Shown piece after piece: positions 24,465-44,346 of a stretch of DNA of 64,000 nt (the first letter of the stretch is position 1; each line of letters opens with the position of its first letter). The stretch is from a virus: the IMG/VR virus record IMGVR_UViG_3300031825_000353; one strand, written 5' to 3'. The position numbers and the translations under genes are program-made. Below the pieces are notes generated by a model. It did not search any database. It had not been told where the DNA came from and was given only the letters and a program-made list of their open reading frames with translations.

Positions 24465-25550
24465 TCAGTCCTCCCCTGCCGCACTTTTGCGGCCAGCCCA
24501 CCCGGTCTTCCGCGCCACCCGCTTCTGCGCTTCGGCTATCCGCCCAAGATCCCAGCCCAGGTAGACAGCGGTGGTGCGGATGTCCTTCTGCTCGAGGGCC
24601 ATCTGGATGTCCTGGATGGTCGCCCCGTTCTCACTCAGCCAGGTGGCGTAGGTGGCCCGAAGGCGGTGGGGCGTCATCCGAGGGACACCCACCGCCTTAC
24701 ATGCGGCATCGAAGACTCGGCGGATCCGCCCCGGCGTCACGGGCTTTCCCTTGAGGGTCGGGGCCATCCAGCCGTAGGGCTTGGCCTTCGCCCTCAATCG
24801 GTCCATGAGCCAGGACGGGACAGGACGAGGCACGGCATCCCCCCCCTTCGTTCCTCCGGGGGTGTAGGTCTCGCGTTCCAGGTCGAGCCATTCCCACCGT
24901 GACCGCTGGGCCTCGCCCCCTCGCAGGCCGATGCCGATCTCCAGGGCCAATACCATGCCCAGACCCGGGTCGTGCTCGGTCAGGGCATCTACCTCATCCA
25001 GCCACTCGTCAGCCTTGTCCGTCGGGATGAGGGGCTTGGGCTTCCGCTTCAGCTTGCTCTCTGCCACGTTGAAGGGCATGGCCCGGATCATGTTGCGGCT
25101 GATGGCCCAGCGGCACACGATCCGGATGTAGGTGAGCCACTGGTTCCCGGTCGAAAGGGCGTGGGTCTGAAGGAACACAGCCAGCTCGTCCTCGACCTTC
25201 GGGGTGGTGACCTGGGTCAGTAGCAGATCGCCGAGGCTCCCGAGGTGCAGGCGCCCGCAGCGCTCCATGTTTTCCAGGTGGCTCTTGCTCTTGCGAAGGA
25301 TGTGCAGGGGATGGTTGACCCACTGGACGAAGGCGGCCCGCAGTGTGGGCTCCGGCTCCTCACCCCTCGACCGCATCAGCGCCTTCTGGTGGATGTCCAG
25401 CGCCACCCGCTCAGCTTTGGCCGTGTTCCGCAGTGGCTCCTTGGTCGTCCGTGTCCGCCGCTTGTTGGCGATCTGAAACTCGCAATGCCAGGTCCCCCCC
25501 CTGGGGACCATCGTCACGGGCCCGCACCGGTAGCGCCGCTCGGTCACCAC
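24465..25550 (-). CDS. Second tyrosine recombinase, atypical (LGH replaced by LEQ)
   Basis: GLRGGE (R), TKG (K), HRLR, TTAVY (Y); GTG start coupled to upstream stop. Confidence 0.88.
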   Translation of the reverse strand: MVTERRYRCGPVTMVPRGGTWHCEFQIANKRRTRTTKEPLRNTAKAERVALDIHQKALMRSRGEEPEPTLRAAFVQWVNHPLHILRKSKSHLENMERCGRLHLGSLGDLLLTQVTTPKVEDELAVFLQTHALSTGNQWLTYIRIVCRWAISRNMIRAMPFNVAESKLKRKPKPLIPTDKADEWLDEVDALTEHDPGLGMVLALEIGIGLRGGEAQRSRWEWLDLERETYTPGGTKGGDAVPRPVPSWLMDRLRAKAKPYGWMAPTLKGKPVTPGRIRRVFDAACKAVGVPRMTPHRLRATYATWLSENGATIQDIQMALEQKDIRTTAVYLGWDLGRIAEAQKRVARKTGWAGRKSAAGED

Positions 25551-26329
25551 AGCTTCACCTTTTGGAGCATGGTCCAAAGCGCGTCCCGGAAGTGGCCCTC
25601 GAACACCTGGTTGAAGGTGGCCTCGATGGTCCCCTTGAAGTCGAGCACCTTGGAATACCTGGCTCGTTTCGGCACGAACTTGAAGAGCTGGGCCACCCCC
25701 CGTTTGCCCTTGCGGGTGTAGATGCCCAGCGGCGTCTTGGTCTTGATCGACCAGAGCACGAAGTAATCGCGCTGGGTCTTCGCTCGGCGCTTGTCCCGGG
25801 CTGGGTTCCGGCCGGTGCGGCCATCCGTCCTCCGGTTCTCGGTGGAGCCTTGATCGCGGAGGGCCCTCATGGCCGAGAGCACCTGCACATAGGTACCGCC
25901 CGGGATGTTCCCGTAGGCGTTCAGCTTCGCGTCGTCCCCGGGCTCCATCTGCCACCCTGGGGGGAGGATGCCCTTGGCGCGGAGCAGCATCTCGCTCTTC
26001 TTATTCGCACGGTAGCCACCCTGGGTCAGGGCCTTCAGGTATTCACTCGGCTCCACGACCTTGCCGCGAGTTTGCCAATTCCAATCCGCACCCTTCACGA
26101 AGACATCGTATTCCTGACGATTCTTCGTCGCCGCCTGGTAGCGGGTCGCATGCTGGGTCTGCGGCGTGGGTCGGTCGAGTTTGGAGCTCAGCACCTTGTC
26201 GAAGGCGTACTTGGCCGCCACGGCCGTCTTGGTCATGGCGGTGGCGATGGCGTATTTCAGGCCCTTGCCACCGCGAAGGTAGGTAAGCCTGGCCATCCAC
26301 TCTTTCGTGTGCCAGCCGAACTTGATCAT
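25544..26329 (-). CDS. Neck/tail-completion (gpZ/HK97 gp10-like) protein
   Basis: AIATAMTKTA...KLDRPTPQT and LNAYGNIPGG..QVLS motifs. Confidence 0.55.
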   Translation of the reverse strand: MIKFGWHTKEWMARLTYLRGGKGLKYAIATAMTKTAVAAKYAFDKVLSSKLDRPTPQTQHATRYQAATKNRQEYDVFVKGADWNWQTRGKVVEPSEYLKALTQGGYRANKKSEMLLRAKGILPPGWQMEPGDDAKLNAYGNIPGGTYVQVLSAMRALRDQGSTENRRTDGRTGRNPARDKRRAKTQRDYFVLWSIKTKTPLGIYTRKGKRGVAQLFKFVPKRARYSKVLDFKGTIEATFNQVFEGHFRDALWTMLQKVKLW

Positions 26330-26694: not shown

Positions 26695-27332
26695 GCCTCA
26701 CCCCCAGCCGCGGCCTTCAGGTCCAGGGGGCTGAGCCGCATGTCCTGGCCGCCCACATAGCTGGCCGGCCAGCTTCCGAGGATGCGGCTCTTGAGGGCCG
26801 GGTCGTAGAAGGCCTCCAGCGCTTCGGGCGTGACCAGGTTGCTGGTCCAGAGCACGGGGAACTTGCGGCGGTGGCGGGCGTCCAGCACCCTGGCCAGCAG
26901 CGGTCGCGCCGGGTCCTTCTCGCCCGAGGTGCGCTCGCGGCCCAGGTCGTCCAGCACCAGCAGCGGCACATCCTCGGCCCACTCCGCCCACTGGTTGAGC
27001 CAGACGGGCTCGAAGCGGCGCTCATGGATGCGCTCGGCTTGGTCGTGCCAGTTCACCCAGAGCAGGCGCCGGTCTCGGGCGATGAGCCCGTCGATCCAGC
27101 AGAGCGAGGCCCGCCAGGGGTCCGGCTGCGAGCGCACCGCGGCCTCCACCAGGCCCGCCACGTAGTGCGTCAGGGCCCAGGTCTTGCCGGTGCCGTTGGT
27201 GCCCACCAGGCCGAAGCCCCCAGGCCGCGCCGGCACCGCATGGCGCGCCGGGTGATCCAGCGCCTCCAGCTCCCGGGCCTCCAGTCCGGCCCTGGCCAGC
27301 AGCTCGCGGGTTCGTGCATGGAATGTGCTCAT
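26691..27332 (-). CDS. DnaC/IstB-like helicase loader ATPase
   Basis: Walker A GTNGTGKT, Walker B LLVLDDLG, PVLWTSNL. Confidence 0.88.
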   Translation of the reverse strand: MSTFHARTRELLARAGLEARELEALDHPARHAVPARPGGFGLVGTNGTGKTWALTHYVAGLVEAAVRSQPDPWRASLCWIDGLIARDRRLLWVNWHDQAERIHERRFEPVWLNQWAEWAEDVPLLVLDDLGRERTSGEKDPARPLLARVLDARHRRKFPVLWTSNLVTPEALEAFYDPALKSRILGSWPASYVGGQDMRLSPLDLKAAAGGEA

Positions 27333-28195
27333 CGTTCACCTGCAAGGGGGAGAGTCGGGAAAGGGGAAGGGCCCTGGGACCCTGGAGACGGTCGGAGAGG
27401 CATGAACCGCCCGGGGCTGGCCCGAGGGCCGCCCGTGTTCTGGGCGCGTTCCAGCCAGCTCATGGCGAAGCGGCCGATGCCCTTCTGGGTCTTCCGGCGC
27501 GAGAGGTTCCCAGGGTCGTTCAGCCAGAGGAGCATCTTGCGGACCTCGGCCAGGACGTTCACCCCAGGGAAGGCCTCGGCCCAGGTCTTGACCATGGCCT
27601 CGGTGACGGGCCAGGTCTTCCCACCTGAACCAGCCACAGGGAACTCCAACACCACCGGCGTGGAGTCGGACTTGTCCGGCTCCGCGCAATACTCTTTTTT
27701 GGGAGCGGGAGCGGGAGCGGGAGCGGGAGCGGGAGGGGCGTCATTTGCTGCCCATTTGCTGTTCACTTGCTGTTCACTTGCTGCCCGTTTCCTGGAAGTC
27801 GCACCTTTCCGGCCAGCATCCGACCGCATTTCAGAGAGCGTCCGACCCTGCTCTTTCCGAGCCATCTCCCGCTGGAGCCGCTTGCCGACGTAGCGGGGGG
27901 CGTGGTCGAAGAGGTCGTGGCACTGGTAGTGGCCCGAGCGACCTTCCACCTCCTCGATGAAGCCCGGGTGATCCTCACCGCCGGCATCCATCAGGGCCCG
28001 GCAGAGGGCCCCGGGTTCTCCCGGCCATTGGGCCGCGGCCTCCACATCGATCACGTCACCAAGGAAGGGGTCGCCGTTCTGGTAGCACTTCTCCCACATC
28101 AGCTCGAGGCAGCCCAGGGCCATGGGGGCGCTGCCCACCAGGCGCGCCAGCCGGAGGAACTTGCGGTGTTGGGTCAAGCCAGGCCGAGCCATCAC
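27329..28195 (-). CDS. Replication initiator (lambda O-like architecture)
   Basis: N-terminal HRKFLRLARL..GCLELMW; Pro/Ala linker; internal iterons; upstream of DnaC-like gene. Confidence 0.75.
   Translation of the reverse strand: MMARPGLTQHRKFLRLARLVGSAPMALGCLELMWEKCYQNGDPFLGDVIDVEAAAQWPGEPGALCRALMDAGGEDHPGFIEEVEGRSGHYQCHDLFDHAPRYVGKRLQREMARKEQGRTLSEMRSDAGRKGATSRKRAASEQQVNSKWAANDAPPAPAPAPAPAPKKEYCAEPDKSDSTPVVLEFPVAGSGGKTWPVTEAMVKTWAEAFPGVNVLAEVRKMLLWLNDPGNLSRRKTQKGIGRFAMSWLERAQNTGGPRASPGRFMPLRPSPGSQGPSPFPTLPLAGER
27701..27786. repeat. Putative replication origin: (GGGAGC)x5 plus four tandem 11-bp iterons
   Basis: ATTTGCTGCCC, ATTTGCTGTTC, ACTTGCTGTTC, ACTTGCTGCCC at 27743-27786, inside initiator gene. 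Confidence 0.65.
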
Positions 28196-28698: not shown

Positions 28699-28830
28699 CG
28701 GTCATCCGCGAAAATTTAGGCTTGGTTTGCGTTTGCAGTTCTACGGTTCGTTCAACAATTACGTTTTAAAAAGAGTGATTAGGCGAACTTGGGCGTCCGA
28801 ATGAAGTTCGTCTAATTCAAAGTTGGGCGT

Positions 28831-29172
28831 TCACTCGGATCGCAGACTTTCCCGGTGCTCAAGTTCTTCACCGCTGTCCTCCCACGAAATGGCCATGGCG
28901 TGGCAGCAGGCGGAGCACCAACGGAAGGTCTGGATCCCTCCGTCGTAGGCTTCGGCTCTTATTCGGATTCGCTCTCCCGGTTTGATCTCTCCGGTGCAGA
29001 TTTGGCAAGGCCCAGGCTTTCGCGCCACGCCGATCTTATCTTTCAGCACCACTTCACCGTCCCCGAAGTCTCCCTCGAAAGGGTTGTAGGCCATGCACTC
29101 CTTTTCGTTGAAGTCGCGCCCAACCGGCTCCTTCAACTCGGACCCAGCCTGGATTTGCTCATTTGGCATCAT
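28831..29172 (-). CDS. Cassette 1 ORF, Cys-rich (CQIC/CSAC) putative Zn-binding protein
   Basis: Starts in loop of attC-A; VARKPGPCQICTGEIKPGERIR motif. Confidence 0.75.
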   Translation of the reverse strand: MMPNEQIQAGSELKEPVGRDFNEKECMAYNPFEGDFGDGEVVLKDKIGVARKPGPCQICTGEIKPGERIRIRAEAYDGGIQTFRWCSACCHAMAISWEDSGEELEHRESLRSE

Positions 29173-29217
29173 CGTGGTTCCCTTCTCCGGCTGGGCCGGT
29201 TAAGTCGAAAGTTAGGC
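29118..29217 (+). repeat. attC site A
   Basis: GCCCAAC ... CTT[C]AAC[T]CGG[A]CCCAGCC / GGCTGGG CCG GTT AAG ... GTTAGGC. Confidence 0.9.
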
Positions 29218-29469
29218 ATCTTCTGTGAGCCTTACGCCCTTGAAGTAGATATGGCCGCAACTAAAACACTCGTAGGGCGTTTCCGTGTCGCGCTTCATCC
29301 ACTCGTGGGCTGGATTGCAGTTCCAGCAGGATCTAGTTGGGAACAACCCCAATAATCCGGATGGCCCATTTGCCTTCGCCCACTCTTCCGCTTCTTGCCT
29401 CAATGTTTCGACGGTGCCCAACCCGCCGCTCAACTCGGACCCTTGGGCCTGTTCATCTTTTCGGTTCAT
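29212..29469 (-). CDS. Cassette 2 ORF, Cys-rich (CWNC/CFSC)
   Basis: ATG and RBS AGGAAGG in loop of attC-B; TAA stop is inside the GTTAGGC core of attC-A. Confidence 0.72.
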   Translation of the reverse strand: MNRKDEQAQGSELSGGLGTVETLRQEAEEWAKANGPSGLLGLFPTRSCWNCNPAHEWMKRDTETPYECFSCGHIYFKGVRLTEDA

Positions 29470-29514
29470 GGTTCGTCCTTCCTGGCCCAAGGGCCGGTTA
29501 GCTTTTCGTTAGGC
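29416..29514 (+). repeat. attC site B
   Basis: GCCCAAC ... GCT[C]AAC[T]CGG[A]CCCTTGGGCC / GGCCCAAGGG CCG GTT AGC ... GTTAGGC. Confidence 0.92.
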
Positions 29515-29796
29515 GTCAGCCTTCGTGCAAAGAAGGAACAGGCTTCCCCCTTCGTTGACCAGGCTGTCTTTCTGGTGGTGCTTGCATGTGCCCATAGGCA
29601 CGGGGCCTTGAATGTTCGTGATGATCCCGTGGGCGCAGACGCGGGGCTTCTCACCCAGCGCCTCGGTGTGAGCCAGAAGGGGGCAGGTTGAACAGGAAAG
29701 GTCCCAGATCCCCGCATTCCCTTCCGTGAACTTCACCCGGCGCCTAACCACGGCGCTCAACCCGGACCCCGCCTTCGTTTCGTCCTGGCTCATCAT
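29509..29796 (-). CDS. Cassette 3 ORF, Cys-rich hypothetical
   Basis: RBS AAGGAG and ATG in loop of attC-C; stop in core of attC-B. Confidence 0.72.
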   Translation of the reverse strand: MMSQDETKAGSGLSAVVRRRVKFTEGNAGIWDLSCSTCPLLAHTEALGEKPRVCAHGIITNIQGPVPMGTCKHHQKDSLVNEGGSLFLLCTKADA

Positions 29797-29839
29797 GTCT
29801 CCTTGGCCCACGGCGGGGCCGGTTAGCTTTTCGTTAGAG
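29742..29839 (+). repeat. attC site C
   Basis: GCCTAAC ... GCT[C]AAC[C]CGG[A]CCCCGCC / GGCGGGG CCG GTT AGC ... GTTAGAG. Confidence 0.9.
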
Positions 29840-30046
29840 CTCCCGCAGCACGATGTGATTGTCCTTGCTCCGGTAGTAGAGGTCCGGGAACCGGTCACGC
29901 CACGCCATCAGCTCCGCCTCCAGCTTGGCTCGCGTGATGCAGCAAAGTGGCTGCGGGAATGCCGTTTCAAAACTGAATGGAGTGATCATCGCCCTAACCG
30001 TGGCGCTCAACTCGGACCCTTGGGCCTGTTCATCTTTTTGGTTCAT
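29834..30046 (-). CDS. Cassette 4 ORF, hypothetical
   Basis: Starts in loop of attC-D; stop in core of attC-C. Confidence 0.7.
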   Translation of the reverse strand: MNQKDEQAQGSELSATVRAMITPFSFETAFPQPLCCITRAKLEAELMAWRDRFPDLYYRSKDNHIVLREL

Positions 30047-30091
30047 GGTTCATCCTTCCTGGCCCAAGGGCCGGTTAGCTTTTCGTTGGGC
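29992..30091 (+). repeat. attC site D
   Basis: CCCTAAC ... GTTGGGC; 82/84 nt identical to site B. Confidence 0.92.
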
Positions 30092-30092
30092 G

Positions 30093-30272
30093 CTACCTGT
30101 AGATCAGAAGGGCAGCCCAAACAGTTGCAGCAGCGCCGAGAATGAAGCTGACGAGATCCGCACCGAGCGTCGTTTCTTCTTTCCTTGGGTAGTTGCAAAT
30201 TGCGATTCGGCCAAGTCGGATCACCCCGGCTATAACGCCAAGCCAGAAAGTGAATTTAATGAATGTGAGCAT
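30093..30272 (-). CDS. Cassette 5 ORF, 59-aa two-TM membrane protein (absent from ORF track)
   Basis: Manual translation MLTFIKFTFWLGVIAGVIRLGRIAICNYPRKEETTLGADLVSFILGAAATVWAALLIYR; GAGG/AAGGG upstream. Confidence 0.7.
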   Translation of the reverse strand: MLTFIKFTFWLGVIAGVIRLGRIAICNYPRKEETTLGADLVSFILGAAATVWAALLIYR

Positions 30273-30286
30273 CCCTTAGTCCTCGC

Positions 30287-30381
30287 GCTCAACCGAGCGC
30301 TCAACTCAGACCCCGGCGCCTGATGGTTGTGGTTTCTTCATCGCTAATCCAGCGCCGGGGCTGGTTAGCTTGGCGTTAGGC
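30287..30381 (+). repeat. attC site E
   Basis: GCTCAAC ... GCT[C]AAC[T]CAG[A]CCCCGGCGC / GCGCCGGGG CTG GTT AGC ... GTTAGGC; compensatory CAG/CTG pair. Confidence 0.92.
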
Positions 30382-30612
30382 CGCTTCCATCTCAAATTGC
30401 ATTTCCAGCGCCAGCTCCTCAGTCACCAGCAACGTTCTACCGTCCGGCATAGTGCGTTCCCACATCCAAAGGCATCCCGGGGTCTGGCAGGTATGCTTCC
30501 ATCCAGCCGCTTCTAAAAACTTTTGAACCGCGTTTGTGTAGTTATCCGACGCCACGTCTTTCAGCGCGAGAAGTTGGTCTAATTTCATCCTTTCAATCGT
30601 TTCCACGTTCAT
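30376..30612 (-). CDS. Cassette 6 ORF, hypothetical
   Basis: RBS GGAGG; stop in core of attC-E. Confidence 0.75.
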   Translation of the reverse strand: MNVETIERMKLDQLLALKDVASDNYTNAVQKFLEAAGWKHTCQTPGCLWMWERTMPDGRTLLVTEELALEMQFEMEAA

Positions 30613-30621
30613 TTCCTCCGG

Positions 30622-30719
30622 GCCTAACCAGGCCCTTCAACTCGGACCCCAGCGCGGGTGCGATGTGGTTTCTGATAGGTCCGGCCTGCGCTGGGGCCGG
30701 TTAAGGGCGGGCGTTATGT
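30622..30719 (+). repeat. attC site F
   Basis: GCCTAAC ... CCCTT[C]AAC[T]CGG[A]CCCCAGCGC / GCGCTGGGG CCG GTT AAGGG ... GTTATGT. Confidence 0.9.
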
Positions 30720-31433
30720 GGATCTACTCATGCCGCTCGGCTCCCAGTTCCAAAGAGCCTCACCGCCGCGTAGCTCGGGCAGATAGATGCCGTCCACCTT
30801 GTCGGGCCGAACATACTTCCCGAGGAAATCCACTTCGCCCTTGCGCTCGCAGCGCCAGACAGCGCCCTCGGCTGGGTCGAGTGCCCCGTGATGGCCGGTG
30901 CCTCCAAGGCGAGCCATGGCCGTCTCGACAGAGCAGGGGCCGCCGAGATGAAGGACGGTCGGCGTGGTGATTCCGGCGCGGTCGCACCTGGCGCTCAGTT
31001 CCTCCCATAGCACCCGCTTCCCCTCCCTGAAGATGTCGAAAGCGGCGAAGGGTTCGTGGGCCAGCAGGTAGCGGGTGCCGTGGGCCTGGGCTAGCCATTC
31101 GCCACAGATCCGCTCCCCTTCGGCCAGCAGATCATTGAAGCGTGGCCAGTTCTGGGCCACCCACCCGGCGAAGAGGTGATGCTGCGAATAATGGCTTGTC
31201 TCCGCCCTCCACCCGGCGCGGGTGACGGGCACAATCACCCCGCCCAGCTTCCCGATGCCCACATTCGATCCGTCCAGCTTCTCTTGCACGATGATGAGGT
31301 CGTGCCGGTCCCTGACCCTTTCCGTGAGAATACGGGCCTGCCCGTCAGCGATCTTGTGATCTCCTGGCCCCAGCCTGCTCATGGGCAGGTGGCCGATGGA
31401 CCCGTAGGACTTCCCGCCGAATGGTTTGTTCAT
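30714..31433 (-). CDS. Cassette 7 ORF: ATP-dependent RNA ligase family protein (start ATG 31433)
   Basis: Nucleotidyltransferase motifs I QEKLDGSN, III GEW, IIIa FDI, IV EGAVW, V KYVR; stop in core of attC-F. Confidence 0.88.
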   Translation of the reverse strand: MNKPFGGKSYGSIGHLPMSRLGPGDHKIADGQARILTERVRDRHDLIIVQEKLDGSNVGIGKLGGVIVPVTRAGWRAETSHYSQHHLFAGWVAQNWPRFNDLLAEGERICGEWLAQAHGTRYLLAHEPFAAFDIFREGKRVLWEELSARCDRAGITTPTVLHLGGPCSVETAMARLGGTGHHGALDPAEGAVWRCERKGEVDFLGKYVRPDKVDGIYLPELRGGEALWNWEPSGMSRST

Positions 31434-31462
31434 CTTTTTGACTCCCTGTTGGTTGGGGTTCG

Positions 31463-31495
31463 CCACATAACCATCTCGCTCAACCCGGGCCCAGC
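31463..31495 (+). repeat. Half attC site G (R'' and L'' only)
   Basis: CCACATAAC is the exact reverse complement of GTTATGTGG at cassette start; GCT[C]AAC[C]CGG[G]CCC follows; no partner arm found. Confidence 0.75.
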
Positions 31496-39675: not shown

Positions 39676-40398
39676 ATGCGTCAAGAGGATTTGTTTACCT
39701 TGAGCCAACTAGCTGACAGAATCCGCCTTGCGCTGAAAACAAATCGTCTCCGGCCGATTGACGTGCCACGCAGGGGTGGCCCAAGCCGCCCCACGATCTA
39801 TCGATTGCTCAAGGAGGAGGATCCGAAGGTCGATGGCCTGACCTTGGATCGGCTGGCCGATGCGATTGGCGTTTCACGCCCCTGGCTCCGGGAGGGGAAG
39901 GGGCCGATGGGTGCCCCTGGGCCGTTCCCTTCAGCTCTTTCTCTTTTGCACAGCAGCTCGTTCATGCCCACCATGGCCCCCGGGTATGGCTCACGGATCA
40001 GCCAGGCTCGCCAAGATGCAGGGATGCCCCTCACCACGGCCGCCCTCACCCTTCAGATCCCCAAGCGCCGCCTAGAGGCCTTCGAGGCTGAGGCCGAGGA
40101 ACCCACGCTCCCTGAATTGATGTCGATCTCCTTGGGCTATCGGGCCAATGTTCGACACCTCACCACCGGGCAGAGCGAAGCGCCCGCCGACATGGCCCGA
40201 GAGCCCAAGGCTGAGCCCTACCGCGATGCTCCGCTGGATCGTGGCCTGCTCTCCCGAGCCCTGGTGGCGGCCCTCGCCTTCCGCCCCAAGCGGGACGCCA
40301 GCCGCATGGCTGCAGCCATCGCGGATGCCTACGACACGGCCAGCAAGCCGGGCAACGCGGATAAGTTAGAAGACTTGGTGCAGGCCCTGCTGAAATAA
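39676..40398 (+). CDS. CI-like repressor with two XRE HTH domains and no S24 peptidase
   Basis: TLDRLADAIGVSRPWLREGKG and RISQARQDAG...LEAFEAEAEEPTLPEL...NVRHLTTG. Confidence 0.8.
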   Translation: MRQEDLFTLSQLADRIRLALKTNRLRPIDVPRRGGPSRPTIYRLLKEEDPKVDGLTLDRLADAIGVSRPWLREGKGPMGAPGPFPSALSLLHSSSFMPTMAPGYGSRISQARQDAGMPLTTAALTLQIPKRRLEAFEAEAEEPTLPELMSISLGYRANVRHLTTGQSEAPADMAREPKAEPYRDAPLDRGLLSRALVAALAFRPKRDASRMAAAIADAYDTASKPGNADKLEDLVQALLK

Positions 40399-43590: not shown

Positions 43591-44346
43591 TCAGAAGCGG
43601 ATTCCACCGCCGAGGGCGGCCGTGTGGTTGAGGTAGACGACCTGGACTTGGGCCGGGCCCCAGGAGGCGGCGGCGTAGGCGCCGAGGTGGCGCTGGCCGG
43701 TGGTATCGACGCCGTAAAGGGCGCCCACGGCCCAGGTGCGGGTGCGGGGGGTGAGATCGATGGCGCGGGCGAGGGCCGCGGCGCGGCGGGCCTCGGTGTC
43801 GGCGCGGGTGTCGGCGGCGGCCAGGGCGCGGTCGGTGGCGGCCTGCTGCTGAGTCTGGGCTTGGGAGCGGGCTTCCTGGGCGGTGGTGAGCTGCTCCAGG
43901 TCGCCCAGGCGGGCCTGCAGGCCGGGCACGCGCAGGGCTTCCCAGCCCCAGCCCAGCACGGCGCGACCGTCGGGCAGGGTCAGGGCCAGGTCAGTGCCCA
44001 GCTCGCGCGGGTGGAGCCCCAGGCCCTGAAGGCCCGCCACCACCACGGCAGCGGAGGCATCGGCAGGGACGGGCACGGCGGGCGGGGGCACGGGATGCTG
44101 CGCAGCCTGGCGCTGAAGCCGGGCCACCTCGGCATTGGTCTCGGTGACCAGCTGCTGCGCGGCGGCGCGGTCGGCCTTCGCCGTCTCCTCGGCTTGACGT
44201 GCCGCACGGATCTCTCCCTTCAGGATGGTGGCTTCCTCGATGGCGGCGGCGCGGCCCCGGGCCTTGTGCACCGCCACGCCGATGGAGGCCAGCAGGGCGA
44301 GGGTCAGGGCGGAGAGGAGGAGGGTGGCCTTGGCGGCGTCGGTCAT
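43591..44346 (-). CDS. Spanin-like protein (copy 2)
   Basis: Identical translation to 204..959. Confidence 0.6.
   Translation of the reverse strand: MTDAAKATLLLSALTLALLASIGVAVHKARGRAAAIEEATILKGEIRAARQAEETAKADRAAAQQLVTETNAEVARLQRQAAQHPVPPPAVPVPADASAAVVVAGLQGLGLHPRELGTDLALTLPDGRAVLGWGWEALRVPGLQARLGDLEQLTTAQEARSQAQTQQQAATDRALAAADTRADTEARRAAALARAIDLTPRTRTWAVGALYGVDTTGQRHLGAYAAASWGPAQVQVVYLNHTAALGGGIRF

What the first reader, a model, noticed from the sequence alone, without database searches (positions are those of the whole stretch)
28831..31433. All cassette ORFs are antisense to attC and use the att sites as expression signals
The unpaired bases on the left arm define + as the top strand, yet all seven ORFs are on minus, matching the phage early operon. 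Typical integron ORFs are co-oriented with the top strand. Five ORFs take their TAA from the GTTA of the neighbouring core. Four have RBS and ATG inside the attC loop and translate through the L''-R'' arm, giving a shared N-terminal tag (QAGSELKEPVG, AQGSELSGGLG, KAGSGLSAVVR, AQGSELSATVR). Each module carries its own translation start and is ready for phage read-through transcription in any order, which points to a phage-adapted cassette class.
Basis: partly seen in the sequence, partly recalled or inferred. Interest (0 to 1): 0.85.

Follow-up and report, generated by a model that had tools for sequence, protein, structure and literature searches.

The report
Phage integron array with reversed cassettes
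A complete temperate phage genome carries seven integron gene cassettes, each built backwards so that the recombination hairpin sits in front of the gene and supplies its ribosome site, start codon and often the neighbour's stop codon, which suggests that phages keep their own cassette type and trade it through the host's integron enzyme.

Summary

- **What the window is.** It is a 43.4-kb circular temperate tailed phage. Positions 28.8-31.5 kb hold six complete attC sites plus one half site, which define seven cassettes.
- **Strand.** The folded minus strand has the anatomy of a recombinogenic attC bottom strand, with G/A/T bulges as in attC-oxa2. All seven genes and the whole phage operon lie on that strand.
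- **Polarity control.** I checked the polarity on related attC arrays next to true integron integrases in Geothrix/Holophagaceae genomes. There, 59 of 73 cassettes carry sense genes.
- **Generality.** In the window, about 10 other IMG/VR contigs and integrase-distant genome arrays, 41 of 69 cassettes have an antisense frame that runs from R'' to within 8 nt of the next crossover. In the chromosomal arrays the figure is 3 of 73 (p = 2e-13).
- **Expression signals.** Four window genes start in the attC loop. Five stop at the TAA of G|TTA.
- **Mobility.** Cassette 1 occurs 100% identical, bounded exactly by R' boxes, in groundwater metagenomes from another study. A reversed cassette also sits at the attI junction of a bacterial integron.
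- **Recombinase.** No phage in this set encodes IntI, so a host IntI is the inferred enzyme.

Phage attC clusters are already published (Qi 2023), but I found no paper describing the reversed architecture. This scan has reported the same layout before, on other phage genomes.

The parts
28730..28828 (+). Array boundary in the position where attI would lie (top-strand 5' end). It is AT-rich, has its own hairpin and ends in the R' core GTTGGGC (28822-28828), where cassette 1 begins.
   Evidence: Sequence and fold (last item). About 75% conserved next to the same cassette in another phage contig, L044. The copies of cassette 1 found elsewhere begin their identity at 28822, so this element is not part of the cassette.
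28823..29211 (-). Cassette 1. ORF c1 is 28831-29172 (113 aa, Zn-ribbon-like, DUF7576/phrog_19515). Its SD and ATG lie in the loop of attC A (29118-29217).
   Evidence: A 100% identical copy of 28822-29217 sits in other contexts in runs X3 and X4.
29212..29508 (-). Cassette 2. ORF c2 is 29212-29469 (85 aa, small Cys-rich protein). It starts in the loop of attC B (29416-29514) and its stop is the TTA of core 29211-29217.
   Evidence: It has 110 homologues, which align only from residue 19-21 onward, after the attC-coded leader.
29509..29833 (-). Cassette 3. ORF c3 is 29509-29796 (95 aa, Cys-rich). It starts in the loop of attC C (29742-29839) and its stop is the TTA of core 29508-29514.
   Evidence: Five homologues at 68-85% identity. 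Called on this strand in the ENA contig.
29834..30085 (-). Cassette 4. ORF c4 is 29834-30046 (70 aa). It starts in the loop of attC D (29992-30091) and its stop is the TTA of core 29833-29839.
   Evidence: A homologue at 76-78% identity lies in the same antisense position in phage array L002.
30086..30375 (-). Cassette 5. ORF c5 is 30093-30272 (59 aa, hydrophobic, probably two membrane helices). It starts after R'' of attC E (30287-30381) and its stop (TAG) lies 1 nt from core GTTGGGC 30085-30091.
   Evidence: A homologue at 36% identity over 58 aa lies in the same position in L002. Its codon score is ambiguous, and the independent gene call missed it.
30376..30713 (-). Cassette 6. ORF c6 is 30376-30612 (78 aa). 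Its GGAGGA ribosome site and ATG come just after R'' of attC F (30622-30719), and its stop is the TTA of core 30375-30381.
   Evidence: the only frame without stops. No homologue apart from its own record. Cores E and F are 98-99% identical to two sites in L011 that flank an unrelated body.
30714..31492 (-). Cassette 7. ORF c7 is 30714-31433 (239 aa, RNA ligase) and its stop is the TTA of core GTTATGT 30713-30719. Its attC is truncated: only R'' ACATAAC (31465-31471) and L'' remain, fused to the 3' end of phage gene 31480-31722.
   Evidence: Pfam RNA_ligase 2.4e-21 and phrog_38169 5.7e-56. CCACATAAC is a perfect 9-nt complement of GTTATGTGG at the cassette start (pair I1). A 96% copy in run X2 diverges from the window at 31485.

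Best explanation
This is an integrase-less integron cassette array (a CALIN) inside the early, minus-strand operon of a temperate phage of Holophagaceae (Geothrix-like Acidobacteriota).

**Architecture (shown).** Its cassettes belong to a reversed class. The gene lies on the attC bottom strand, so in the sense of the mRNA each cassette begins one base after the crossover point. It starts with its own attC hairpin, whose terminal loop often carries the ribosome site and ATG. It runs through the gene and ends at, or 7 nt before, the next crossover point, often with the TAA made by ...TAA|C.

**Expression (inferred).** Each cassette is therefore a self-contained translation unit. It needs only read-through transcription from a phage promoter and works at any position in the array.

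**Movement (inferred).**
- The cassettes move by ordinary IntI recombination at G|TT.
- The integrase is supplied by the host's chromosomal integron, whose own attC sites are of the same family.
- The same cassettes can also land in host integrons. There they face the cassette promoter and should be silent.
For: **Phage identity.**
- The genome is circular, 43,387 bp.
- It encodes terminase, portal, protease, major head protein, tape measure, tail protein and a P4-type integrase.

**attC anatomy and polarity.**
-, read against Nivina 2016.
- The bulges T..A..G, each 3 bp apart on the L'' arm, match the G16/A20/T24 pattern described for attC-oxa2.

**Polarity control on real integrons.**
- IntI scores above 460 bits (cut-off 265) in five genomes.
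- In three of them the integrase is seen beside an array, upstream and divergent from the top strand called by the model: G. alkalitolerans, G. fuzhouensis and MAG DX1.bin12.

**Sense versus antisense.**
- Chromosomal arrays: 59 of 73 cassettes have a sense ORF covering at least 80% of the body.
- Phage and integrase-distant arrays: 41 of 69 have an antisense frame open from R'' to within 0-8 nt of the next crossover (26 exactly at TAA|C, 13 at 7 nt), against 3 of 73 in the chromosomal arrays. Fisher p = 1.9e-13.
- Flanking phage genes are co-oriented with the bottom strand in the window and in at least 9 other loci.

**Signature of crossover at G|TT.**
- R'' pairs better with the R' box at the start of its own cassette than with its own site's R': 40 against 9 in phage arrays and 51 against 2 in chromosomal arrays.

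**Mobility.**
- Cassette 1 is 100% identical and bounded at both R' boxes in two runs of another study. In one of them an attC right arm precedes it.
- Reversed cassettes sit inside the G. alkalitolerans integron.
- A reversed cassette is the first one at the attI junction in MAG DX1.bin12, with its stop at G|TTA.

**No IntI in the phages.**
- The window's two tyrosine recombinases score 33.8 bits against the cut-off of 265.
- No IntI was found in 10 viral contigs, at least three of them complete or nearly so.

**Translation starts.**
- 33 of 82 downstream ORFs start in the loop: 24 in the GSEL frame, 9 in the VRVER frame and none in the frame that L'' closes with TGA.
Against: - No transcript or protein data exist for this DNA.
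- No recombination was observed directly, and the host integrase is inferred from attC family membership only.
- The window's exact host is unknown. The closest prophage relative found (head protein 84% identical) has neither an array nor a host IntI, so the array is not needed by this phage lineage.
- About 40% of the cassettes in the phage-type arrays do not fit the simple boundary-to-boundary rule. Some hold two genes, and some attC sites may have been missed.
- ORF length alone does not separate the strands in this GC-rich DNA.
- Codon scores inside the window are weak for c2 and c5.
- attC cores and gene bodies reassort, which crossover at R' alone does not explain.
Confidence: 0.8

Rival explanations
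1. The array is a dead passenger. A piece of a host chromosomal integron was picked up once by illegitimate recombination. The antisense layout is a founder accident with no ongoing exchange and no adaptation to phage life.
For: No IntI in the phage. The last attC is truncated. The region has a lower GC content (58%) than the backbone. A close prophage relative lacks the array.
Against: Host integron cassettes are overwhelmingly sense (59 of 73), so a random fragment would not give seven antisense genes with loop starts and TAA|C stops. The same layout occurs in backbones that share no flanking genes with the window. Cassette 1 is found 100% identical in other arrays.
Confidence: 0.08
2. A phage-encoded tyrosine recombinase moves the cassettes rather than a host IntI. 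The candidate is the 496-aa protein at 24468-25955.
For: It lies about 3 kb from the array. A 29% identical homologue lies about 1 kb from the array in L011. Earlier notes of this scan describe phage arrays that use their own recombinases.
Against: It scores 33.8 bits against the integron-integrase model (cut-off 265). A 67% identical homologue is present in the array-less G080 prophage. The attC family is shared with IntI-adjacent arrays, and a reversed cassette sits at a true attI junction.
Confidence: 0.08
3. The repeats are phage RNA-level elements (translation-initiation hairpins, processing sites or terminators) that only resemble attC, and they are not recombination sites.
For: The ribosome site and ATG sit in the loop, and the hairpins lie between every pair of genes. 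Rfam has no matching family that could contradict this.
Against: The sites belong to the same sequence and structure family as sites in integrase-linked arrays. The R''/R' pairing follows cassette boundaries. Similarity between copies ends exactly at GTT.
Confidence: 0.03
4. The polarity is mis-assigned: the coding strand is really the attC top strand and the cassettes are ordinary.
For: attC sites are near-palindromes, and both strands read RYYYAAC...GTTRRRY.
Against: The bulges are on the 3' arm of the minus strand, as defined. The opposite strand scores 14-18 bits against 60-105 bits for the called strand. The same model orientation gives canonical intI-upstream, sense-gene arrays in three genomes.
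Confidence: 0.02

Closest known systems
CALINs (clusters of attC sites lacking an integron integrase) in bacteriophage genomes, Qi, Rajabal, Ghaly, Tetu & Gillings 2023 (PMC9892861)
   Same: attC arrays without IntI inside phage genomes. That paper showed phage attC sites to be substrates of a bacterial IntI1, with the bottom strand preferred.
   Different: That paper reports 17 small CALINs and describes their cassettes as arranged like typical bacterial arrays. It does not mention genes antisense to attC, starts in the attC loop or a phage-specific cassette class. Here the array has seven cassettes, all reversed, and the class recurs in a dozen phage contigs and inside host integrons.
Sedentary chromosomal integrons of Geothrix/Holophagaceae
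   Same: Same attC family: identical R and L boxes, the same bulges, and matches of 40-85 bits to the phage model. The same G|TT boundary signature.
   Different: They have IntI and an attI position. Their attC sites are mostly 136-137 nt rather than about 95-113 nt. 59 of 73 genes are sense with attC downstream of the gene. Median cassette spacing is about twice as long, 426 against 221 nt.
attC-oxa2 and VCR2, attC sites with three extrahelical bases (Nivina et al. 2016, PMC5027507)
   Same: Three bulged bases spaced 3 bp apart on the L'' arm of the bottom strand, G/A/T as in attC-oxa2. An unpaired central spacer of 5-8 nt and a variable terminal loop.
   Different: In those sites the gene is on the top strand and the loop carries no translation signals.
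Inverted cassettes of Vibrio chromosomal integrons
   Same: The gene is antisense to the array's top strand.
   Different: Those are a minority among sense cassettes and carry their own promoters. Here the whole array is reversed. No sigma-70-like promoter was found inside it and no toxin-antitoxin family matched. Expression must come from the phage operon.

Membership tests
attC recombination site | Inverse core R'' RYYYAAC and core R' GTTRRRY at the two ends | tested here: met
   Six of six full sites. The only deviations are CCCTAAC (D) and GTTATGT (F).
attC recombination site | Imperfect palindrome that folds into a hairpin with an R box, unpaired central spacer, L box, extrahelical bases on the L'' arm of the bottom strand and a variable terminal loop | tested here: met
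   Single-strand DNA folds and the consensus structure, in which 7 pairs show compensatory changes. The anatomy is as described. Individual z-scores are modest (-1.3 to -3.1).
attC recombination site | Cassette boundaries at G|TT: R'' is complementary to the R' box at the start of its own cassette | tested here: met
   All 7 window cassettes, read by eye. Across the data set, 40 against 9 in phage arrays and 51 against 2 in chromosomal arrays. Identical copies end at the R' boxes.
attC recombination site | Recombined by an integron integrase, bottom strand preferred | not testable with these tools
   Indirect evidence only: a reversed cassette at a true attI junction and others inside integrase-linked arrays.
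CALIN (Cury et al. 2016 definition, from my own knowledge) | At least two attC sites within 4 kb of each other and no integron integrase nearby | tested here: met
   Six sites spaced 250-336 nt apart. The best TIGR02249 score in the genome's two tyrosine recombinases is 33.8 bits against a cut-off of 265.
Canonical integron gene cassette | Promoterless gene on the attC top strand, with attC downstream of the gene, expressed from Pc | tested here: not met
   All seven genes are on the bottom strand with attC upstream.
Complete integron | intI gene, attI site and Pc next to the array | tested here: not met
   No IntI. A conserved element sits at the attI position, but its function is unknown.
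Inverted toxin-antitoxin-type cassettes with their own promoter | Own promoter and a toxin-antitoxin gene pair | tested here: not met
   No toxin-antitoxin Pfam or PHROG family matched. No promoter-like site was found inside the array, though the scan is a crude sigma-70 one.

The most novel reading that the evidence does not exclude
Temperate phages of Holophagaceae, and by the scan's earlier reports other phage groups too, maintain their own attC-first cassette architecture. These cassettes form a gene pool shared among unrelated phages and with host chromosomal integrons. Phages borrow the host integron integrase to shuffle small accessory genes, possibly counter-defence genes such as the RNA ligase. 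Host integrons in turn bank these cassettes in silent, promoter-facing orientation. The independent reassortment of attC cores and gene bodies would then point to a second crossover point at R'', which classical integron recombination does not use.
Probability: 0.45. Interest if true: 0.88.

Novelty: new variant of a known kind. Interest (0 to 1): 0.78.

Why it matters
Integrons are understood as bacterial devices. Their cassettes are promoterless, the attC site trails the gene, and orientation is enforced so that Pc can read the gene.

A coherent class of cassettes built the other way round, carried by phages and compatible with the host integrase, has several consequences:

- **Cassette architecture is not fixed.** attC can double as a translation-initiation module.
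- **Phages take part in the cassette economy.** They are not only occasional carriers.
- **Chromosomal integrons may hold phage genes that Pc cannot express.** This changes how 'unknown' cassettes should be read, including in surveys that assume sense orientation when calling cassette ORFs.
- **The question is testable.** Geothrix fuzhouensis SG12 and G. campi SG10 are cultured strains that carry both an IntI-linked integron and a separate reversed array.

Tried and rejected
- **Reference phages.** A BLASTN search of the array against INPHARED phages gave no match.
- **Own genome.** No whole genome is held for the window.
- **Rfam.** No family matched the region.
- **RNA evidence.** No RNA run holds the DNA.
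- **Longest ORF per strand.** This does not separate the strands in the phage arrays (39 against 28) because GC-rich DNA leaves shadow frames open. I replaced it with the boundary-to-boundary open-frame test.
- **Codon-usage score.** A log-odds score trained on the phage backbone is weak, because the cassettes have a foreign composition.
- **Terminator idea.** I tested whether the reverse orientation avoids terminator-like T tails. T-rich tails follow the hairpin in 20 of 93 sites in top sense against 2 of 93 in bottom sense. The chromosomal sites show the same asymmetry (10 of 78 against 0 of 78), so this does not explain the phage preference.
- **Integrated copy.** Two look-ups of the phage integrase, meant to reach the 720-kb contig that carries the same proteins, failed, probably because my start codons differ from the recorded gene call.
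- **Own IntI in related phages.** This lead came from earlier scan notes. None was found in 10 contigs of this attC family.
- **Wider pattern scan.** A looser scan of IMG/VR added only one contig.
- **Joints between attC sites in laid contigs.** These have 21-30 nt sides and probably come from other arrays with similar sites. I did not read them as deletions.
Full report
**What the window is.** The window repeats itself with an offset of 43,387 bases (position 204 equals position 43591). It is therefore one circular genome written about 1.5 times. Nearly all genes lie on the minus strand. PHROG and Pfam scans find large terminase, portal, head protease, major head protein, tape measure, tail protein, a C5 DNA methyltransferase and a P4-type integrase with an arm-binding domain. 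This is a complete temperate tailed phage. An independent public assembly of the same genome (ENA contig of 43,436 nt) exists, and its gene calls agree with mine, except that c5 was not called. The stretch 29-31 kb has 58% GC against 65-72% around it.

**The repeats are attC sites.** Six units of 95-100 nt recur every 250-336 nt. On the + strand each reads RYYYAAC, spacer, CTCAACYCGGACCC, a stem, a loop of about 30 nt, the stem's complement, GGCCGGTTA, spacer, GTTRRRY.
- The family pattern occurs four times in the window. None of 100 shuffles had any match.
- The consensus fold has 24 pairs, 7 of them with compensatory changes in the distal stem.
- Folded as single-stranded DNA, the minus strand gives: 5' R' box, unpaired spacer, L box, stem, open loop, then the returning arm with three bulged bases T, A and G, each 3 bp apart, then spacer and R''.
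- Nivina et al. 2016 describe exactly this for the recombinogenic bottom strand: AAC in R', extrahelical bases near L'', and G16/A20/T24 in attC-oxa2.
- A seventh site (31465 to about 31492) keeps only R'' and L''.

**Independent check of polarity.**
- A covariance model of the six sites finds the same family in 11 IMG/VR contigs and in Geothrix/Holophagaceae genomes. All sites in a locus lie on one strand, and the opposite strand scores 14-18 bits against 60-105 bits.
- Five of those genomes encode true integron integrases, at more than 460 bits for four of them against a cut-off of 265.
- In G. alkalitolerans the sites run without a break from the contig start to about 900 nt from intI. In G. 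fuzhouensis the sites run over at least 17 kb up to about 550 nt from intI. In MAG DX1.bin12 the first site is 384 nt from intI.
- In each case intI is upstream of, and divergent from, the strand my model calls 'top'. That is the textbook layout.
- In these chromosomal arrays 59 of 73 cassettes carry a sense ORF that fills at least 80% of the body.
- The model orientation is therefore the canonical one.

**The genes are on the bottom strand.** Seven minus-strand ORFs fill the seven cassettes.
- c7 is an RNA ligase (Pfam 2e-21), and c1 belongs to phrog_19515 / DUF7576.
- c1 has 22 homologues at 44-86% identity, c3 has five at 68-85%, and c2 has 110.
- c4 and c5 have homologues in the same position in another phage array.
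- c6 has none. It is the only frame without stops and follows a GGAGGA site.
- Five ORFs end with the TTA of GTTA. That is the last three bases of the cassette, immediately before the crossover point (TAA|C on the bottom strand).
- The two ORFs that face a GTTGGGC core stop 1-2 nt before it.
- c1-c4 start at an ATG preceded by AGGA/GGAG inside the loop, which the folds leave unpaired. They are translated through L'' and R''.

**The 'tag' is a by-product.**
- Across all loci, 33 of 82 bottom-strand ORFs start in the loop: 24 in the frame that reads GSEL/GSES and 9 in the frame that reads VRVER. None uses the third frame, where L'' contains TGA.
- Another 18 ORFs start 0-3 nt after R''.
- Homologues of c2 are 55-100 aa proteins that align only from residue 19-21 of c2.
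- The c1 family occurs as ordinary, tightly packed early genes in phages with no attC.
- The leader is therefore added by the attC site and is not part of the protein family.

**The layout is a class, not an accident.** I measured, for each cassette, whether an antisense frame stays open from R'' to the next crossover.

| Measure | Phage, prophage and integrase-distant arrays | Chromosomal integron arrays |
|---|---|---|
| Cassettes scored | 69 | 73 |
| Antisense frame open from R'', ending within 0-8 nt of the next crossover | 41 | 3 |
| Ending exactly at TAA\|C | 26 | 3 |
| Ending exactly 7 nt before the crossover | 13 | 0 |
| Sense ORF covering at least 80% of the body | 28 | 59 |

- For the antisense measure, Fisher p = 1.9e-13.
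- Flanking phage genes on both sides point the same way as the bottom strand in the window and in L003, L004, L005, L008, L010, L011, L017, L019 and L023.
- Only L023 shares backbone genes with the window, so several unrelated phages carry the layout.
- None of 10 viral contigs encodes an integron integrase. Three of them have terminal repeats and one is estimated 97% complete.

**Evidence that the cassettes move as integron cassettes.**
- *Boundary signature.* In every window cassette, R'' is complementary to the core box at that cassette's own start rather than to its own site's core box. An example is CCACATAAC against GTTATGTGG for c7 (pair I1). Across the data set the signature holds 40 to 9 in phage arrays and 51 to 2 in chromosomal arrays. 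This is what crossover at G|TT and a circular intermediate produce.
- *Identical copies elsewhere.* Contigs from two groundwater metagenome runs of a different study contain window 28822-29217 (cassette 1 with attC A) without a single difference. The similarity ends at the two core boxes. In one contig the upstream flank is the right arm of another attC, so the cassette is internal there but terminal here.
- *Cassette 7 elsewhere.* A 96% copy of cassette 7 in a third run diverges from the window at 31485, inside L''. This marks where the last attC was truncated against the phage backbone.
- *Reversed cassettes in host integrons.* Three such cassettes lie inside the G. alkalitolerans integron among 136-nt sense cassettes (L024 5497-6588). 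In MAG DX1.bin12 the first cassette after attI is of this type. Its ORF (MMMTKSNEGGVRVER...) starts in the attC loop, faces intI and stops at the TAA of the G|TTAGAC junction.
- *Conclusion.* A bacterial integrase has therefore inserted such a cassette in the normal polarity. That confirms the orientation and shows the two pools are connected.

**Host and necessity.**
- The attC family points to Holophagaceae.
- A prophage in one genome of that family has a major head protein 84% identical, a terminase 81% identical and a syntenic early region. In place of the array it has about 2.8 kb of ordinary genes without attC, and that genome has no IntI.
- The array is thus an accessory, variable module.

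**Mechanism: what is shown and what is inferred.**
- *Shown:* the anatomy, the polarity, the coding strand, cassette-precise polymorphism, and the presence of the class in both phages and host integrons.
- *Inferred:* transcription by read-through from the phage early promoter. No promoter-like site lies inside the array in a crude scan, and one lies at 39684.
- *Inferred:* translation from the loop ATGs, recombination by host IntI, and silence of reversed cassettes in host integrons.
- *Open:* why the reverse polarity is favoured. The terminator-avoidance idea gets little support.

**Unexplained.** attC cores and gene bodies assort independently.
- Cores E and F are 98-99% identical to two adjacent sites in L011, but the body between them, with its R' and R'' boxes, is unrelated.
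- Conversely, the c1 body (about 90% nucleotide identity) is joined to a different core type in L044.
- Near-identical cores on unrelated cassettes are also the rule in the chromosomal arrays. This may be the familiar, unexplained homogeneity of attC sites within a lineage, or a second crossover at R''.

**Prior knowledge.**
- Phage CALINs and their recombination by IntI1 are published (PMC9892861). That paper does not describe reversed cassettes.
- Six full-text searches found no paper that does.
- Earlier follow-up reports of this scan describe the same reversed layout in other phage genomes. I treated these as leads only. One lead, phage-encoded IntI, I tested here with a negative result for this family.
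- This window adds a matched host-integron control, reversed cassettes caught inside host integrons, and an identical cassette in a second environment.

Noticed in passing
window 28730-28828: The AT-rich element at the attI position has its own hairpin and ends in GTTGGGC. It is about 75% conserved next to the c1 cassette in another phage contig (L044), although the downstream genes differ. It could be an attI-like site or an operon terminator followed by a promoter.
   Followed up: partly
window 24468-25955 (-): A second tyrosine recombinase (496 aa) lies between the early region and the terminase. It is not an integron integrase (33.8 bits against a cut-off of 265). A 67% identical homologue sits in the array-less G080 prophage, and a 29% identical homologue lies beside the array in L011.
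   Followed up: partly
window 30280-30725 against L011 840-1300; window 28831-29217 against L044 1-400: attC cores and gene bodies reassort. The same two cores flank unrelated bodies, and the same body carries a different core. Breakpoints lie at the R' and R'' boxes. Crossover at R' alone does not explain this.
   Followed up: partly
window 30714-31433 (-): An RNA ligase is carried as a mobile cassette. By analogy with T4 RNA ligase, which repairs tRNA cut by host anticodon nucleases (my own knowledge), it is a candidate counter-defence gene.
   Followed up: no
L024, L035, L036 (G. alkalitolerans) and L041 (G. fuzhouensis): Large chromosomal integrons in cultured Geothrix species, apparently undescribed. 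They hold roughly 40 and at least 31 cassettes, with very homogeneous 136-137-nt attC sites (90-98% identical cores).
   Followed up: partly
L019 (G. fuzhouensis, 331-334 kb) and L017 (G. campi, 153.8-155 kb): Separate reversed arrays of 9 and 4 sites lie far from the strains' own integrons, and in L019 on the opposite strand to it. The flanking genes are co-oriented, so they are probably in prophages. Both strains are cultured and usable for experiments.
   Followed up: partly
window 30320-30355 (-), loop of attC E: The loop of site E holds an ATG that opens only an 11-codon frame, closed by the TGA in L''. It may be a remnant leader or a tiny upstream ORF ahead of c5.
   Followed up: no
window 27701-27794: Tandem 12-nt (GGGAGC-type) and 11-nt repeats lie inside gene 27329-28195. 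They encode a PAPAPAPAP linker.
   Followed up: no
proteins P0023 and P0029: Exact copies of c3 and c6 are also on record on a 719,919-nt contig, presumably this phage integrated in its host chromosome. I could not fetch that contig.
   Followed up: partly
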